Source of the DNA: Octopus sinensis
Lineage: Eukaryota
DNA: 64,000 nucleotides
Direction: 5' to 3'
Assembly: GCF_006345805.1 (NCBI RefSeq)
Contig: NC_043001.1
Coordinates: 29,450,001 to 29,514,000, forward strand
This document shows positions 1 to 63,000 of this stretch, in pieces. Every line of letters begins with the position of its first letter. Position 1 is the first letter of the stretch. A program made the position numbers.

Positions 1-3000
1 CCTCTCTATACATTAGAAAATGAAATTACTTACATTGTCATTATCAACTGCTTGAATCTTTCCAACTATTGTTCCTAGTTTTGAAAGAGAATTGGTCTGG
101 AATCTATAAGATGGTAACTGAAAGCTTGGAGAATTAACATTCCTACTCATCTTGATGTAGATCTTTGTGGTGTCTTTGTTTGAAGGATATTGTGGATTAT
201 AAGCTTCAACAATCAACTAAAAGAGAAAAGTGACATATATGAAAAGATTACATACAACAGATAAACCAAAGAACTGAGACCTTCAGTTATTTTGATATCA
301 CTTGAAGTAATAAATGATTATGAAAATTATATGTAAAATTAATACTTCAGTGGACCACAGAAATCGATCCTGAAATGATTTAAGTTTAACTAGCGGTTTG
401 GTTGTTGCCCTCATGATCACAAGACAGGGTGGTGGATTGTGTTTTTGAGTAAAGCACTTCATTTAGCGTTGTGTTCCAGTCCACCCAGCTGAAAATGAGT
501 AACCCCACGATGGACTCGCATCCCATTTGGAGGGAGTGTTGTGATCTCACACATTTATATGTCACGGAAACTGGTTACCAGCTTTATGAATACTAGAATT
601 CAAGACAGTAACATTCAGAGGTTATCAATGATGAATATAGCATTAAAGAGGTCAATATATTCCTGCAGAAGTTGCAATTCTAACATGCACTAACTTTATC
701 TAGAATAAGCCTAGCACCAATATCTCAAATATTGGTAAGTTGAAGCAATCCTCCTCCTCCTCCTCCTCCTCATCATCATCATCATCATCAGCATCATCAG
801 CAGCAGCAGCAGCAGCAGCAGCGTTGTCATTTAATATTTGTTGTTCATGCTGGTATGGGTTGGACAATGTAAAATTGAATTTTCTTTTCCCCTATAGCCA
901 CATAAATTCTTAGAAAGCATGTCATTTGTTCACTTGGTTACTTCACTTATATTGGGTTGTCCGGAAAGTTCATGCCGATTTTTAAAGGAAAGAAAAAGGT
1001 CAATAAATACTTCCCATTACATTTTTAATCAACCAAATATGAACCATGCACAATGCATCTTCATCTTTCCTTTAACTTGAAAATACCCTCTTCCCAGAAT
1101 TTAGGTGGTTTCATGGCAAAGAATTCATCAAGATATCTTTTTACGTCATCCAAGGAATTGAAATTTTTACCATTAAGACTATTCTGCAGAGACCCGAATA
1201 AGTGGAAATCCGAAGGAGTAATATCTGGTGAATATGGAGGGTGGAGTAACACATCCCAGCCGAGCTGCAGCAATTTTTGTCTGGTTCCCAAAGCATCAAG
1301 TGCCGAAAATGAACTTTCTTATCTTCCATTTTAAAGGGTTACAGAATTAACACAGCTAATAGGAACATAAACCTTCTTCCACGAAAAGATAGCTTAAACT
1401 GTGCTCTAAATGGAGATGTAGTCAAATCCTATTTTATGGACTCAACCATGTTCTAAAATAAGTCAAAAGGTAAGCTACTATAAATCGGCACAAACTTTCC
1501 GGACAACACAATACTTAAAACATTTTAAGAGAATATTCATAATAGATTTTTATAGTTCCATTTTACCGTTTTCTTCTAGTAAAGATATGACCAAAGAAGA
1601 AAGCATGATTTTACTTGAAGAACATTAAGAGCAGATGTTTTACAAATATAAAAATTCAGATATCTAATTGAAATAACACATTTACAGTAAATTAACAGTT
1701 TGATGAATAGCTTCTAAGTACTTTACATTACAAAGCAGAATGTACAATTTCTTGTAATTCAGACATCACATGGTCCCAGCAGACAAAACGGAAAAGATGT
1801 TGCCCTGGAGGATGCAATGGAGATGCACTGGAACAACTGCTCTGATTCATGAGGCTTGCACTTGCGGATAGCCATCTCCACCCTGATAATCACGAGCAGG
1901 GATATAGTTGCCTTGAATCTTATAAGTTATTGCTTTTAACTTTGGCTCAGCTTTGATCAAGCTGACCTATGTTCAAGAGTATTTTTGATCTGACCATCTT
2001 GAATTTTTTTTGATCAAGTATAATAATAATAATAATAATAATCATCATCGTTTAGCGTCCGCTTTCCATGCTAGCATGGGTTGGACGGTTCAACTGGGGT
2101 CTGGGAAGCCAGAAGGCTGCACCAGGCCCAGTCTGATCTGGCAATGTTTCTACGGCTGGATTCCCTTCCTAATGCCAACCACTCCGTGAGTGTAGTGGGT
2201 GCTTTTTACGTGCCAGACGAGGCTGGCAAACGGCCACGATCGGATGGTACTTTTTACGTGCCACCGGCACGGGGGGCCAGGCAAGGCTGGCAATGGCCAC
2301 GAATGGATGGTGCATTTTACGTGCCACCGGCACGAGGCCAGTCGGGGCAGCACTGGCAACAGCCAATAATAATAATGAAATTATTGTATACAGTGCTCAG
2401 GTGCACCACAACTTGTCAAAAGTGCATATAAAGCATATGCAGTAATGTACAAATATCTGGAAAGTGAACAGTGTATGAGTCAGATACATGCTTGTGTGTG
2501 TATAGAGGGGGGAAAATCAGGTGTAGTGTTGGTGAATCTCAGGAAGCATGGAAGTTTTGAAGGATGCAGTGCTCTGACAACTAACAACTGATGCCGGCAG
2601 TCTGTTCCATGCTTCAGCAACTCTTAGTGTGAAAAAATGTTTCCAAAAGTCATGGGAGCTGTGCTGTTTTCTGACTTTGCAAACATGTCCACGGGTGTTA
2701 GACAGGTGGAGTTTGAAAAGGTGCTCAGAGTCATTGTTTGTAAGATGGTTAATAATTTTATGGGTGTCTGCCAAATCAGCTGCCAATCAGGTATCTTTTT
2801 CCAATTTTCCTTATGATGATGAATGTGATACGAGAGAGATTTGACTGCCATTTCTAGCAAATTGAACAATTACAGAGAGCAAACATTTGACTTAAAATTT
2901 TACAAGCAGAAACTATAAGATATTTCTGCAAAAATCTTATTATTGAATCAATAATCAAACTTGTCTGAAACGTAATCAGGCATGTTTGCCTTAGCTTTAA

Positions 3001-60000: not shown

Positions 60001-63000
60001 CACCTAGGGCTGACCTGTGTCTAAACAACAATCACCTGCAAATCTTGACACAATAATAAGATTGTGTGTATTATGGAATAATTATGGAACAAAAAAGGTG
60101 TTTAAATAAATATATGTCTTTGCCAAATCAATGACTTGCAGATAATTGTAGGACTTAAAAATTCAAACAGGGATAATTATTTATTGTAAGGAAAAAAAAT
60201 AACCACAAAGTATAGAAGGGTCTGGACTACAAATTCATATGTTGTAAGTCCATGTTGGTTGTAATCATTTCATAGTTTCTGAGTAAAATGCTTAATTCTG
60301 CATTGTCTCTTCAGTTCACGAAGATGTCAGGCAGAAGGGCAAGTTCCTTTAAAAACATTTTTTATGGCTTAGTTACAAGAAGAAGAGCATAATGACTGGA
60401 TAGAAGGAAGTTATCCAAAGACCTATGACCTTACCAGATGCTGGCAACAGAATGAACTCTGCTAAAGGCACATGAGGGACAGATGGGGTGTTAAACCAAA
60501 GAATTAAGCCTACTGCCAGTTGGGAATGGGATAGAGTGGCATGCTACCCAGAAGGAGATTTGTCTTTTAGCTGCTTAATACCATGGAACTGAGTAAAGTA
60601 TCAACATGCACTCAGAAATTCTGGATTTGAGAAAATATTTTCTTTGACTGGTTCTTTAAAAAGTAAAAAAAAAAAAATCAGTGTTTCTAGTTTACAGAAG
60701 CAAAACAAATTCTGTAAACAGGGCCACTAATGGTGAAGTTCTTGTAATCATTGGTGGCTCACCTTACCAAGGTGTCAGATGATGCCTTTAAGGGAGCTTG
60801 GCTGTACCAATGGCTTAGCCTCGCCATCACCTGTGGTAATGTCACAAGTGTATTGGTTTGTTTCAGCAGGATCCATTGAACCTTGTGGTGTACAACCAAT
60901 TGAAGCACTTGGTGTTGATTTAATGCTTTTTCTTTCTTTTTTGTTTTTCTTACTCTTTTCTTTTTTTATCATTCTTTGTTCTTCTTTTTCCATTTTTTCT
61001 CCTGATTTTGAATTTGTATTTTTGATGTGATTTTGTATTATATATGTATCATATACATACATGTTATATTCCAATAAAAGATACTCTATATTAGATTTAA
61101 GAGTAATGAAACTGATCAATATTTGGCTATATGTTATATTCATATACTAGCAATTAGAGTGTTTACAGTGATTTAATATGAGGCTTCTATAATATTTGAT
61201 CTGATGTCATAAAGCCAAATCAAAGAAATAAGAAATAAATGATTTTTTTGGTGAATAAGCAGGGTATGAATTAAAAGCTATTTTCTCTTTGTTTATATTA
61301 CATATTCTTCAAATGTATTCAATATAAATTATCAAGTTTAAATTTTCAAGTTTAAACCTAATTTATAGAAACAAAAAGCCAGAAGGCTGCACCAGGCCCA
61401 TTCTGATCTGGCAGTGTTTCTACAGCTAGAAGGGAATCCAGCTGTAGAAACACCGCTAGATCAGACTGGGCCTGGTAAAGCCTTCTGGCTTCCCAGACCC
61501 CAGTTGAACCATTCAACCCATACTAGCATGGAAAGCGGACGTTAAAGGATGATGATGATGATGATGAAAAAGCATCACTTAAGGTAGAACAAACATTAAA
61601 GAAACATCTGGAAGCTACTAACCTGTTGATCCTTGTCATCAGCAGTCAGTTGTAAGACAGATGAACCGATTTGATGGTTTTCACTAATAGATTTATTATA
61701 CAATCTACTGTCCCAGATTGGAGCATTAGGGTTTCGGATTACATTAATCACTAACTGAGACGTTGTTGAAACTTTTGTGTTATTTTCTTGATATGCAACC
61801 ACATCCAACTAAAAATAGAAGAAATAAAAGGATACGTATATAAAATACAAAAAAAAAATCTTTTTTATGGCTTAATATTAGAAAGCTAGTCTTTTATAGG
61901 GCCTTTAAGATTGGTGGAGGAAAAAGGGGAAGAAACAACAATCCTCAAATTAGAAAATAGGTCCAAATTCTTGCAACACAGCAAACTCTGCAAAAGCACC
62001 CAAGAATCATATGGTTGGTAAACTGACCATATCAGGCTCAAATACTCTACCTGTTTTAAGTTTAAATCAGCCAGACATGGCTTCTCAGTCTTCCCTACGA
62101 TGCCATTTTAAAAATAAGCAATTATATCATTGAAATCTCAAAGCTATGAGATAATGCATGATTAATTCAAAACGATGTTAATGAATATACATTGCATAAA
62201 ACAGAGTAATATGAGTGCTCAAGGGCCAAGTAAGATTAGAAAGTGCTGAGATGATTAGTCTTTGTTCTTGAAGGAGAAATACTCTCTCTTTTTCTTTTAC
62301 TCTTTTACTTGTTTCAGTCATTTGACTGCGGCTATGCTGGAGCACCGCCTTTAGTCGAGCAACTCGACCCCGGGACTTATTCTTTTTTGTAAGCCCAGTA
62401 CTTATTCTATTGGTCTCTTTTTGCCGAACCGCTAAGTGATGGGGACGTAAACACACCAGCATCAGTTGTCAAGCAATGCTAGGAGAACAAACACAGACAC
62501 ACAAACACACATACATACATATATATATATATATATATATATATTATATATATATATATATATATATATATATATATATATATATATACATATATACGAC
62601 AGGCTTCTTTCAGTTTCCGTCTACCAAATCCACTCACAAGGCATTGGTCGGCCTGGGGCTATAGCAGAAGACACTTGCCCAAGATGCCACACAGTGGGAC
62701 TGAACCCAGAACCATGTGGTTAGTTAGCAAGCTACTTACCACACAGCCACTCCTGTGCCTGATTGTTTTTCTTTTGTTATATTAATAATTCCTTTTAATA
62801 TATATCATATTGATTTTTATAAATCAAGTTCGACTGAGATTTTTAATTCACCGAAGCAGTTCAAGAAATAAAAGATATTTTTAAAAAGGCTGGTCATTGC
62901 AAGAAACAATTTAAGAAAGACTAACAGTTCAGTTGATTAACATTTAAATTTGATAATAAGTCAATTGAAATTGATATCCTAATTTTCACCACAAGAGAGA

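What the first reader, a model, noticed from the sequence alone, without database searches (positions are those of the whole stretch)
34..61808. Hidden ABAB super-repeat: the duplicated unit is two domains / four exons
Seen: long exons alternate between type A (1,5,9,...29: AYD-like + RNxNxPxF, no GxPP) and type B (3,7,...27: mostly AxDxGxPP, degenerate linker). Short exons after A start D-x-I/L-T/S-Y (DKLTY, DVLTY, DTITY, PNNITY, DVISY, DQITY, DNITY). Those after B mostly carry YE/R-I-x-G...P..FF (GIYPA, GIFPS, GDVSAP, GNYPS, GEGSAP). Inference: the gene expanded by tandem duplication of a two-domain cassette, giving a titin-like super-repeat with two alternating inter-domain geometries.
Basis: partly seen in the sequence, partly recalled or inferred. 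Interest (0 to 1): 0.7.

Follow-up and report, generated by a model that had tools for sequence, protein, structure and literature searches.

The report
Two-domain super-repeat in giant cadherin
This window holds part of a giant mollusc-type cadherin gene whose adhesion domains come in two strictly alternating flavours, an old family-wide pattern that may give the long protein a regular alternation of stiffer and looser joints.

Summary
On the minus strand there are 29 exons, 15 long (60-63 aa) and 14 short (38-45 aa). All have AG/GT splice sites and all are phase 0-0. They encode 14 complete and 2 partial cadherin (EC) repeats, two exons per repeat. The ABAB labelling is the best of 6435 balanced labellings for the long exons and the best partition for the short exons. 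Both exon trees split A from B on one branch, with moderate support.

The pattern is neither recent nor private to this gene. No exon shares DNA similarity with another. The same period-2 signal occurs in 8 of 8 nearest molluscan 'protocadherin Fat 4-like' proteins and in a chiton, but in 0 of 9 Fat/fat-like controls. Profiles trained on the window recover alternation in other species.

An ancient two-domain cassette is the best explanation. Direct evidence that neighbouring units were copied together is modest.

'Two alternating geometries' stays an inference. No linker is canonical. A-linkers keep more Ca2+ site-3-type ligand positions (26/31) than B-linkers (13/28).

The parts
61623..61808 (-). 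E1, long exon type A (62 aa): end of one EC repeat, A-linker, start of next EC
   Evidence: AG/GT, phase 0; orthologue P0003 residues 1580-1641, 84% identity
58413..58538 (-). E2, short exon type a (42 aa), DKLTY...: middle of an EC repeat
56660..56842 (-). E3, long exon type B (61 aa)
   Evidence: P0003 1642-1702, 80%
54824..54937 (-). E4, short exon type b (38 aa)
   Evidence: P0003 1704-1740, 84%; Pfam Cadherin positions 30-60, sub-threshold
52932..53114 (-). E5, long exon type A (61 aa)
   Evidence: P0003 1741-1801, 84%
50723..50851 (-). E6, short exon type a (43 aa), DVLTY...
   Evidence: P0003 1820-1850, 90% over 31 aa
50083..50265 (-). E7, long exon type B (61 aa), degenerate
   Evidence: not present in the P0003 model
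48895..49020 (-). E8, short exon type b (42 aa), ...GIYPAREFF
   Evidence: P0003 1851-1892, 88%
47260..47445 (-). E9, long exon type A (62 aa), most degenerate A-linker
   Evidence: P0003 1893-1954, 90%; 0/4 site-3-like positions
43404..43517 (-). E10, short exon type a (38 aa), DTITY...
   Evidence: P0003 1955-1992, 84%
40988..41170 (-). E11, long exon type B (61 aa), degenerate
   Evidence: P0003 1993-2052, 80%
39493..39621 (-). E12, short exon type b (43 aa), YEIDGIFPSDDFF
   Evidence: P0003 2054-2096, 91%
38623..38805 (-). E13, long exon type A (61 aa)
   Evidence: P0003 2097-2157, 82%
36081..36215 (-). E14, short exon type a (45 aa), PNNITY...
   Evidence: P0003 2159-2202, 91%
32010..32195 (-). 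E15, long exon type B (62 aa), ASDNGFPP
   Evidence: P0003 2203-2264, 82%; best single-exon Pfam Cadherin hit, E=7.3e-5, still sub-threshold
28263..28385 (-). E16, short exon type b (41 aa)
   Evidence: P0003 2265-2305, 85%
26308..26490 (-). E17, long exon type A (61 aa), RNVNTPVF
   Evidence: P0003 2306-2366, 85%
23808..23930 (-). E18, short exon type a (41 aa), DVISY...
23178..23360 (-). E19, long exon type B (61 aa), ATDSGNPP
22372..22494 (-). E20, short exon type b (41 aa), YEVIGDVSAPTFF
19589..19771 (-). E21, long exon type A (61 aa)
17108..17230 (-). E22, short exon type a (41 aa), DQITY...
15198..15386 (-). E23, long exon type B (63 aa), ATDNGEPP
13436..13564 (-). E24, short exon type b (43 aa), YEIVGNYPSSIFF
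11745..11930 (-). E25, long exon type A (62 aa)
10884..11006 (-). E26, short exon type a (41 aa), DNITY...
6993..7172 (-). E27, long exon type B (60 aa), AIDNGQPP
3092..3211 (-). E28, short exon type b (40 aa), YRIIGEGSAPSYF
34..216 (-). E29, long exon type A (61 aa), RNVNSPSF; the gene continues beyond the window's start

Best explanation
The window holds an internal stretch of a giant type-I membrane cadherin gene, running off both ends. It belongs to the mollusc-wide family that databases auto-name 'protocadherin Fat 4(-like)'. The source organism is a mollusc by its relatives; 'cephalopod' is my guess.

Each EC repeat is built from two phase-0 exons. A long exon straddles the EC-EC junction and carries the end of repeat n, the linker and the start of repeat n+1. 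A short exon carries the middle of the repeat.

The repeats are of two kinds that alternate strictly. One kind follows an A-linker, has a D-x-I-T-Y short exon and ends in A-[ST]-D-x-G-x-P-P plus a degenerate B-linker. The other follows a B-linker, has a Y-E-I-x-G..P..FF short exon and ends in A-Y-D plus an R-N-x-N-x-P-x-F A-linker.

Shown: the alternation is real, is shared across molluscan classes, and is absent from true Fat cadherins.

Inferred: the array descends from an ancient two-domain (four-exon) cassette that was multiplied in tandem before the molluscan classes split, and has since diverged to about 26-30% identity.

Inferred from motifs only: no junction binds the canonical three Ca2+ ions. 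DRE is lost, the linker is one residue shorter than DxNDNxP, and Arg sits where Fat cadherins have the first Asp. A-junctions mostly keep the ligands of Ca2+ site 3, like PCDH15 EC5-6. B-junctions in this region have largely lost those too, like Ca2+-free linkers. The ectodomain would then alternate between two joint types along its length.
For: Gene structure:
- 29/29 AG-GT, all phase 0-0.
- Junctions are confirmed by a collinear orthologue model, P0003, at 80-91% identity for 15 exons.

Cadherin identity:
- Per-exon Pfam Cadherin hits map long exons to profile positions 69-93 and 2-25, and short exons to 30-68.
- The 15-exon profile hits 143 distinct PDB sequences. The 60 best that were listed are all cadherins; the best is CELSR1 at E=2e-68.
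- P0003 has 16 Cadherin stretches, the best inside the window-orthologous part.

ABAB:
- Exhaustive labelling tests, and every even lag above every odd lag.
- Single A|B bipartition in both trees.

Family-wide:
- Period-2 z = 5.7-9.8 with 0/300 shuffles in 8/8 nearest molluscan relatives; 9 named Fat/fat-like controls give z = -2.6 to 1.5.
- Chiton P0266: z = 2.9, 2/1000.
- Window-trained A/B profiles alternate in Solemya 31/38, Aplysia 25/28, H. cracherodii 18/20 and Mytilus 20/26 adjacent pairs.
- The signal persists without the motif columns in 9/9 family proteins tested, z = 2.1-7.5.

Age:
- 0 of 149 self-BLASTN HSPs touch an exon.
- No decay of similarity with distance.
- Size-matched best identity is 0.342 within the window against 0.358 across species.

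Membrane protein: a single TM segment lies near the C-terminus in P0151, Aplysia and Patella.

Linker chemistry:
- DRE 0/14 and DxNDN 0/15 in the window. Site-3-like positions kept: A 26/31, B 13/28, Fisher p=0.005.
- Family columns: R 94%/84% at the Fat Asp column, and N 91% in A against D44/N33 in B.
- Precedent: PCDH15 EC5-6 lacks DRE, has DXNDN changed, keeps DXD and XDX, binds one Ca2+ at site 3 and takes variable orientations. EC9-10 is Ca2+-free and bent about 90 degrees (passages read in PMC7547225 and PMC5120219).
Against: - Tree support for A|B is only moderate: 74/82 and 61/68.
- In the window's long exons the A/B signal vanishes when the motif columns are removed (841/6435). It is also absent from the C-terminal half alone (1916/6435).
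- The orthologue model P0003 shows no significant period-2 (z 0.9-1.2). I attribute this to exons E2 and E7 missing from that model, which is an inference.
- Alternation by A/B calls is weak in Tegillarca (24/37; 74/2000), Patella (16/27; 157/2000), H. rubra (19/33; 246/2000), P0013 and P0016. One control, Tachypleus, alternates 11/13 (23/2000).
- Only 1 of 8 co-duplication tests in the window is positive (A with the next a: r=0.55, 51/5000). Two are strongly negative (A with b: -0.63; a with b: -0.51).
- The linker difference has exceptions. B-linkers E15 and E19 keep 4/4 site-3-like positions and A-linker E9 keeps 0/4.
- In the family at large both types keep XEX, DXD and XDX-top at 72-98%, so the A/B chemical contrast is smaller there.
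- No structure, Ca2+ binding or geometry was measured.
- The organism is not identified by any search.
Confidence: 0.75

Rival explanations
1. Convergence rather than common descent. Repeats multiplied one at a time, and selection for an alternating pattern of junctions later imposed the A and B motifs on neighbouring repeats.
For: In the window's long exons the A/B signal lies almost wholly in the motif columns around the F-G strand end and the linker. Without them it is not significant (841/6435), and the C-half alone gives 1916/6435. Neighbour co-similarity in the window is mostly absent or negative.
Against: Short exons keep the A/B split after their motif columns are removed (14/3432). 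In 9/9 family proteins the period-2 signal persists without motif columns (z 2.1-7.5). 8 of 18 neighbour co-similarity tests in relatives are positive at p<0.05, and 0 of 5 in controls. Recent 2-, 4- and 8-domain cassette copies exist in other giant cadherins.
Confidence: 0.12
2. A young, lineage-specific tandem expansion of a two-domain cassette within this gene.
For: Regular exon sizes and uniform phase 0. Strict ABAB order.
Against: 0 of 149 self-BLASTN HSPs touch an exon. Same-type identity is only 0.23-0.30 and does not fall with distance. Units are as close to size-matched random units of other molluscan classes as to each other. The same two types are found in bivalves, gastropods and a chiton.
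Confidence: 0.05
3. Chance or annotation artefact. The alternation reflects how exons were picked, or a few eye-catching motifs.
For: The strict RN.N.P.[FW] motif is present in only 3/8 A exons and A.D.G.PP in only 4/7 B exons.
Against: The exon set is complete and unique, and 15 exons are confirmed by an orthologue. The ABAB partition is the single best of 6435 and of 1716 partitions. Independent proteins from other species show the same periodicity.
Confidence: 0.02

Closest known systems
Molluscan giant cadherins auto-named 'protocadherin Fat 4(-like)': Patella vulgata P0004, Aplysia californica P0155, Haliotis rubra P0154, H. cracherodii P0157, Mytilus galloprovincialis P0156, Tegillarca granosa P0152, Solemya velum P0153, and the chiton Liolophura sinensis P0266
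   Same: These are by far the best-scoring named relatives: 1000-1800 bits, against 650 or less for vertebrate Fat1/3. Their Pfam content is cadherin-type models only. Those that look complete have a single C-terminal TM. They share the period-2 super-repeat, and the same A and B types are recognised by window-trained profiles. They also share the R-N type linker and the lack of DRE.
   Different: Identity is only 25-30%. The window's B-linkers are more degenerate than the family average. The relatives have about 22-39 detected linker units. The total for the window's gene is unknown because the gene runs off both ends.
The very large octopus cadherin gene (>70 EC domains, high in suckers) attributed to Albertin et al. 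2015
   Same: It is a giant all-EC cadherin of a mollusc. The window's gene is long too: the orthologue model has 1579 aa upstream of the window-equivalent part.
   Different: Identity with that gene is not shown. I saw only one sentence in a review (PMC6062618, passage). The original paper is not held. No call names the window's organism.
True Fat / Fat-like cadherins (Fat1-4, Drosophila fat-like) and Dachsous
   Same: They are giant cadherins with about 27-34 EC repeats, some of them with non-canonical linkers. The Fat and Dachsous self-bending paper (Tsukasaki 2014) was seen only as a reference-list entry.
   Different: The Fat1/3 relatives listed carry EGF and laminin-G Pfams (PF00008, PF02210, PF00054), which the molluscan family lacks. 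0 of 9 Fat/fat-like controls show period-2. Their linker columns are D-x-N-(D)-N, not R-N.
Protocadherin-15 non-canonical linkers (EC5-6 with one Ca2+ at site 3; EC9-10 Ca2+-free and bent)
   Same: The motif pattern matches. The A-linker resembles EC5-6: no DRE, altered DXNDN, DXD and XDX-top kept. The window's B-linker tends towards EC9-10, with most motifs gone.
   Different: In PCDH15 these are single special joints in an 11-repeat chain. Here non-canonical joints are the rule and alternate regularly. No structure exists for the molluscan family.
Titin A-band super-repeats (recalled, not from any call)
   Same: A higher-order period is laid over a string of similar beta-sandwich domains, presumably made by cassette duplication.
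   Different: Titin alternates two different folds (Ig and Fn3) in 7- and 11-domain patterns matched to the thick filament. Here one fold occurs in two subtypes with period 2, and no partner lattice is known.

Membership tests
Cadherin superfamily | Tandem extracellular cadherin (EC) repeats recognised by Pfam PF00028 | tested here: met
   Exon by exon the hits are sub-threshold fragments only: 14 of 29 exons have a Cadherin hit at E<=0.1, always at the expected profile segment. The profile of the 15 long exons hits 143 distinct PDB sequences; the 60 best that were listed are all cadherins, best E=2e-68. The orthologue P0003 passes the Pfam cut-off with 16 stretches, the best at 2133-2225 inside the window-equivalent part. 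No joined model of the window was scanned.
Cadherin superfamily | Canonical Ca2+-binding motifs XEX, DRE, DXNDN, DXD, XDX-top (definitions from PMC5120219) | tested here: not met
   DRE 0/14 and DxNDN 0/15. DXD and XDX-top are partly kept: A 26/31, B 13/28 for the four site-3-like positions. This does not exclude membership, because Ca2+-free EC linkers are known within the superfamily.
Molluscan 'protocadherin Fat 4-like' giant cadherin family | Best reciprocal-type similarity to this group, not to Fat1-4 | tested here: met
   The P0003 window-equivalent region scores 1000-1800 bits to the molluscan proteins and 650 or less to vertebrate and insect Fat proteins. The test was made through the orthologue, not the window itself.
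Molluscan 'protocadherin Fat 4-like' giant cadherin family | Period-2 (ABAB) alternation of EC subtypes, with an R-[ND] linker one residue shorter than DxNDNxP | tested here: met
   Window. Relatives. This feature is proposed here; it is not an established definition.
Fat / Fat4 cadherins proper | EGF-like and laminin-G domains between the EC array and the TM segment | not testable with these tools
   That part of the gene lies outside the window. In the nearest relatives the precomputed Pfam lists lack PF00008, PF02210 and PF00054, whereas the Fat1/3 hits have them. Pfam scans of Solemya, Aplysia and P0003 gave cadherin-type models only, apart from one PepSY match in P0003.
Fat / Fat4 cadherins proper | Canonical D-x-N-D-N linkers at most junctions and no two-domain periodicity | tested here: not met
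   Fat controls have D 71% and N 68% at the linker columns and no period-2. The window and its family have R and N, and do show period-2.
Super-repeat proteins (titin type) | Similarity at the super-repeat lag exceeds similarity between neighbouring domains | tested here: met
   Lag 2 exceeds lag 1, and every even lag exceeds every odd lag, for both exon classes. This is an organisational resemblance only, not homology.

The most novel reading that the evidence does not exclude
This molluscan family is a distinct class of giant cadherin. Every EC-EC junction has given up Ca2+ sites 1 and 2: an Arg replaces the first Asp of DXNDN, DRE is gone and the linker is one residue shorter. One-Ca2+ (site 3) junctions alternate regularly with Ca2+-free junctions. 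That would fold the 30-to-70-repeat ectodomain into a periodic zig-zag or helical spring, or allow self-zippering in steps of two domains. If so, the protein is a built-in elastic or spacing element, not a stiff Ca2+-rigidified rod.
Probability: 0.2. Interest if true: 0.7.

Novelty: new variant of a known kind. Interest (0 to 1): 0.45.

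Why it matters
Long cadherins are usually pictured as Ca2+-stiffened rods with occasional special joints. Here a whole family, conserved across molluscan classes, has non-canonical joints throughout, arranged in a strict two-domain period. That gives a simple, testable rule for how a 30-70 repeat ectodomain might be shaped or made elastic. It also gives a sequence signature (period-2, R-N linkers, no EGF/LamG) that separates these proteins from the true Fat4 cadherins whose name automatic annotation gives them. I found no description of a cadherin super-repeat in the searchable library. 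The primary octopus genome paper and its supplements could not be read and may bear on this claim.

Tried and rejected
- A search with a single exon for longer homologues found nothing. That tool's 'longer' band stops at 2000 aa, so giant proteins were out of reach.
- The protein-atlas search rejected P0003 as too long.
- The search for shorter homologues gave only one family-like protein, the chiton P0266, and no cephalopod entry. The organism therefore remains unnamed.
- Structure prediction was not run. The tool returns no coordinates, so inter-domain angles could not be measured, and no joined model of the window may be made.
- Period-4 or higher order in the window was looked for in the lag tables and not seen.
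- The Mantel co-duplication tests in the window are inconclusive.
- The raw count 'cross-species best hit beats within-window best in 14 of 15' is biased by pool size (260 against 14). I replaced it with the size-matched comparison.
- A Pfam scan of 10 intronic ORFs gave only sub-threshold HTH hits.
Exons were handled one at a time, or as rows of an alignment. Whole-protein analyses used database proteins only.

Full report
**What is in the window.** The finding lies on the minus strand. Stop-to-stop ORFs and splice-site inspection give 29 exons between 61808 and 34. Fifteen are long (60-63 aa) and fourteen are short (38-45 aa), and they alternate. All 29 have AG acceptors and GT donors, and every exon length is a multiple of three, so all introns are phase 0. 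One long plus one short exon makes 99-106 aa, the length of one cadherin (EC) repeat. Profiles built from the two exon classes, run over all six frames of the window, recover exactly these 29 exons; the next best hit has E=0.025. No exon was missed, none lies in 61809-64000, and the gene runs off both ends.

**Handling of the spliced model.** Exons were treated one at a time or as separate rows of an alignment. Whole-protein analyses used database proteins.

**Cadherin identity and exon-domain register.** Scanned one by one, the exons give only sub-threshold Pfam Cadherin (PF00028) hits, but always in the same register. The start of a long exon matches profile positions 69-93, its end matches 2-25, and a short exon matches about 30-68. 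A long exon therefore straddles an EC-EC junction and a short exon is the middle of a repeat. A profile of the 15 long exons (alignment A1) hits 143 distinct PDB sequences. The 60 best that were listed are all cadherins, with CELSR1 best at E=2e-68. Against 1.84 billion representatives the same profile finds 15017 proteins, and the best 150 are giant proteins 1228-7984 aa long. One of them, P0003 (2803 aa, unnamed source), is a collinear orthologue. Fifteen exons (E1, E3-E6, E8-E17) match residues 1580-2366 at 80-91% identity, mostly with block ends at my exon boundaries (E6 matches over only 31 of its 43 aa). That model lacks E2 and E7 and does not contain E18-E29. P0003 passes the Pfam Cadherin threshold with 16 stretches.

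**Check of the observation.**
- An aromatic residue in A-[YF]-[DNQT] occurs in 8/8 A and 0/7 B exons.
- [RK]N...P.[FW] occurs in 7/8 A and 0/7 B. The strict RN.N.P.[FW] occurs in only 3/8 A.
- A.D.G.PP occurs in 0/8 A and 4/7 B.
- [DN].[IL][TS]Y starts 7/7 short exons after A and 0/7 after B.
- Y[ER][IVA] occurs in 5/7 short exons after B and 0/7 after A (all).

On an alignment made without type labels, within-type identity exceeds between-type identity: long exons 0.259 against 0.221, short exons 0.290 against 0.237. Every even lag exceeds every odd lag. The ABAB labelling is the single best of 6435 balanced labellings of the long exons, and the best partition of the short exons (2 of 3432, the partition and its complement). 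Maximum-likelihood trees of the long and of the short exons each put A and B on opposite sides of one branch. Support is 74/82 and 61/68, and 0-1 of 500 label shuffles do as well.

**A limit on that result.** In the window's long exons the signal lies mostly in the motif columns near the end of the repeat and in the linker. Without columns 5-13 and 24-30 the ABAB labelling is matched or beaten by 841 of 6435 labellings, and the C-terminal half alone by 1916 of 6435. The short exons keep the split without their motif columns (14 of 3432).

**Age of the array.** Self-BLASTN of the window gives 149 non-self HSPs and none touches an exon. They are interspersed intronic repeats in both orientations. 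Same-type similarity does not fall with distance along the gene. The best identity of a window unit to another window unit (mean 0.342) is no higher than to the best of 14 random units drawn from eight relatives, seven of them named molluscan species of other classes (0.358). The raw count, 14 of 15, is biased by pool size and is not used. The array is therefore old.

**The pattern belongs to a family.** The window-equivalent part of P0003 scores 1000-1800 bits to proteins of Tegillarca, Solemya, Haliotis (two species), Aplysia, Patella and Mytilus, plus one unnamed JGI entry. Most are auto-named 'protocadherin Fat 4(-like)'. It scores 650 bits or less to vertebrate and insect Fat1/2/3. The molluscan proteins' Pfam lists lack the EGF and laminin-G models that the Fat hits carry.

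I extracted every linker-centred unit with a generic profile and compared even with odd lags.
- All 8 of these relatives show period-2: z = 5.7-9.8, 0 of 300 shuffles.
- The 9 named Fat or fat-like controls do not: z = -2.6 to 1.5.
- Three lower-scoring bivalve proteins (Sinanodonta, Mya, Potamilus) show little or none: z = 2.0, 0.3, 0.4.
- A chiton protein, P0266, shows it: z = 2.9, 2 of 1000.
- Among the top 150 representatives, only 14 have z>3 and the median is 0.16.

A and B profiles trained only on the window's exons call alternating types in Solemya (31 of 38 adjacent pairs differ; 0 of 2000 shuffles), Aplysia (25/28; 0), H. cracherodii (18/20; 1), Mytilus (20/26; 17), P0151 (25/37; 8) and P0005 (23/30; 6). 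The calls are weaker in Tegillarca (24/37; 74), Patella (16/27; 157) and H. rubra (19/33; 246). The four Fat1/Fat3/fat-like controls Canis, Clarias, Takifugu and Bradysia give 5-6 differing pairs of 14-17. Liolophura Fat1-like (8/14) and Owenia (11/18) are also unremarkable. Tachypleus is an unexplained exception (11/13; 23 of 2000).

In 9 of 9 family proteins the period-2 signal remains after the motif columns are removed (z = 2.1-7.5), and not in two controls. The two types therefore differ across the domain, as expected for two old lineages of repeats. The orthologue model P0003 itself gives z of only about 1. I attribute this to its missing exons, which shift the repeat index, but that is an inference.

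**Cassette duplication.** Several points fit descent from a two-domain, four-exon cassette: uniform phase 0, identical intron positions in both repeat types, two clades, and family-wide alternation. A direct test asks whether similarity between two units predicts similarity between their neighbours.
- In the window only A against the following a is positive (r=0.55; 51 of 5000). Two comparisons are strongly negative.
- In relatives 8 of 18 tests have p<0.05 (Aplysia r=0.45-0.51, Patella 0.48, Solemya 0.30, P0005 0.30, H. rubra 0.26, Tegillarca about 0.2).
- In three Fat controls none is positive.

Other giant cadherins among the top hits carry recent cassette copies. P0006 and P0087 have period 2 (75-95% identity at even lags against about 35% at odd lags). 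P0007 and P0002 have period 4, and P0028 has period 8. The mechanism therefore operates in this superfamily.

**How it may work.** The motif definitions come from passages of PMC5120219: XEX and DRE from repeat n, DXNDN in the linker, DXD and XDX-top from repeat n+1. They form three Ca2+ sites.

In the window, DRE is absent at 14 of 14 scorable positions and DxNDN at 15 of 15. The four positions that build site 3 are an N or D after the conserved R/K, the two Asp of DXD, and the Asp of XDX-top in the next long exon. They are kept at 26 of 31 positions for A-junctions and 13 of 28 for B-junctions (Fisher p=0.005). There are exceptions: E15 and E19 (B) keep 4/4 and E9 (A) keeps 0/4.

Across the family, Arg occupies the column where the Fat controls have the first Asp (94% in A, 84% in B; Fat: D 71%). 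The next column is N in 91% of A units, against D44/N33 in B. The linker is one residue shorter than the canonical one. XEX-Glu, DXD and XDX-top are kept at 72-98% in both types.

The A pattern matches what PMC7547225 reports for PCDH15 EC5-6: no DRE, altered DXNDN, intact DXD and XDX, one Ca2+ at site 3, and variable orientation. The more degenerate B pattern in the window tends towards the Ca2+-free, bent EC9-10 type. Alternating joint chemistry is thus plausible, but it is inferred from motifs only. Angles and Ca2+ binding were not measured, and the structure tool returns no coordinates, so it was not used.

**Overall architecture.** Three relatives that look complete (P0151, Aplysia, Patella) have one hydrophobic TM-like segment, 98-190 aa from the C-terminus and more than 400 aa after the last detected linker unit. 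This fits a type-I membrane protein.

**Organism and literature.** No call names the organism. It is a mollusc by its relatives. 'Cephalopod' is my guess, from the AT-rich, microsatellite-rich introns and from a review sentence about an octopus cadherin gene with over 70 EC domains that is high in suckers (PMC6062618, passage). The primary paper is not held, so identity with that gene is unverified. Searches for a cadherin super-repeat or for this family found nothing relevant. Supplements of papers I could not see may bear on the novelty claim.

**Verdict.** The super-repeat is real and best explained by an ancient two-domain cassette, but it is a trait inherited by a mollusc-wide family, not a recent history of this gene. 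The 'two geometries' remain a motif-based inference.

Noticed in passing
proteins P0006, P0087, P0007, P0002, P0028 (top hits; not in the window): Other giant cadherins from unnamed sources carry recent multi-domain cassette duplications. Period 2: P0006 at 83-95% identity and P0087 at 65-75% at even lags, against about 35% at odd lags. Period 4: P0007 at 71-76%, and P0002. Period 8: P0028 at 73%.
   Followed up: partly
window 15689-16673 (intron between E22 and E23): A tandem duplication of about 475 bp: 15689-16206 and 16164-16673 are 98% identical over 518 bp. The ORF listing shows the same microsatellite-flanked segment twice.
   Followed up: no
window 13604-14076, 26746-27197, 48097-48686, 62276-62799, 63289-63654 and others: A family of interspersed repeats of about 350-600 bp at 76-86% identity lies in both orientations in several introns and upstream of E1. 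A second family of about 230 bp is at 29687-29933, 32619-32853, 36864-37107, 38905-39142 and 49724-49961. A third, of about 150-350 bp, is at 2029-2365, 34186-34534, 37697-38047, 55858-56021 and 61429-61570. They look like SINE-type elements but were not classified.
   Followed up: no
window 55284-55628 (+), 53327-53764 (-), 1061-1318 (-), 35266-35658 (+): Intronic ORF remnants that look like decayed Tc1/mariner-type transposase pieces. Pfam gives only sub-threshold HTH hits: HTH_48 of Mos1 transposase at E=4.4e-4 for 55284-55628, and general HTH models for 53567-53764. The others gave nothing. The mariner reading of those rests on my recall of the motif.
   Followed up: partly
orthologue model P0003 against window exons E2, E7, E18-E29: The only close database relative omits E2 and E7 and does not contain E18-E29. 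Because every exon is phase 0-0, such omissions keep the reading frame. Gene predictors, or real exon skipping, could therefore drop or add parts of repeats without a frameshift.
   Followed up: no
control protein P0247 (Tachypleus fat-like cadherin): Window-trained A/B profile calls alternate in 11 of 13 adjacent pairs (23 of 2000 shuffles), although its lag analysis shows no period-2 (z=-1.0). Unexplained; it may be chance with few pairs.
   Followed up: no
family alignment column 25 of the linker-centred unit (window long exons, e.g. R in IRNPNAP of E1): Arg is nearly invariant in the family (94% and 84%) at the column where Fat cadherins have the first Ca2+-binding Asp of DXNDN. A positive side chain at a former Ca2+ site might stand in for the ion. 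This is pure speculation and was not tested.
   Followed up: no
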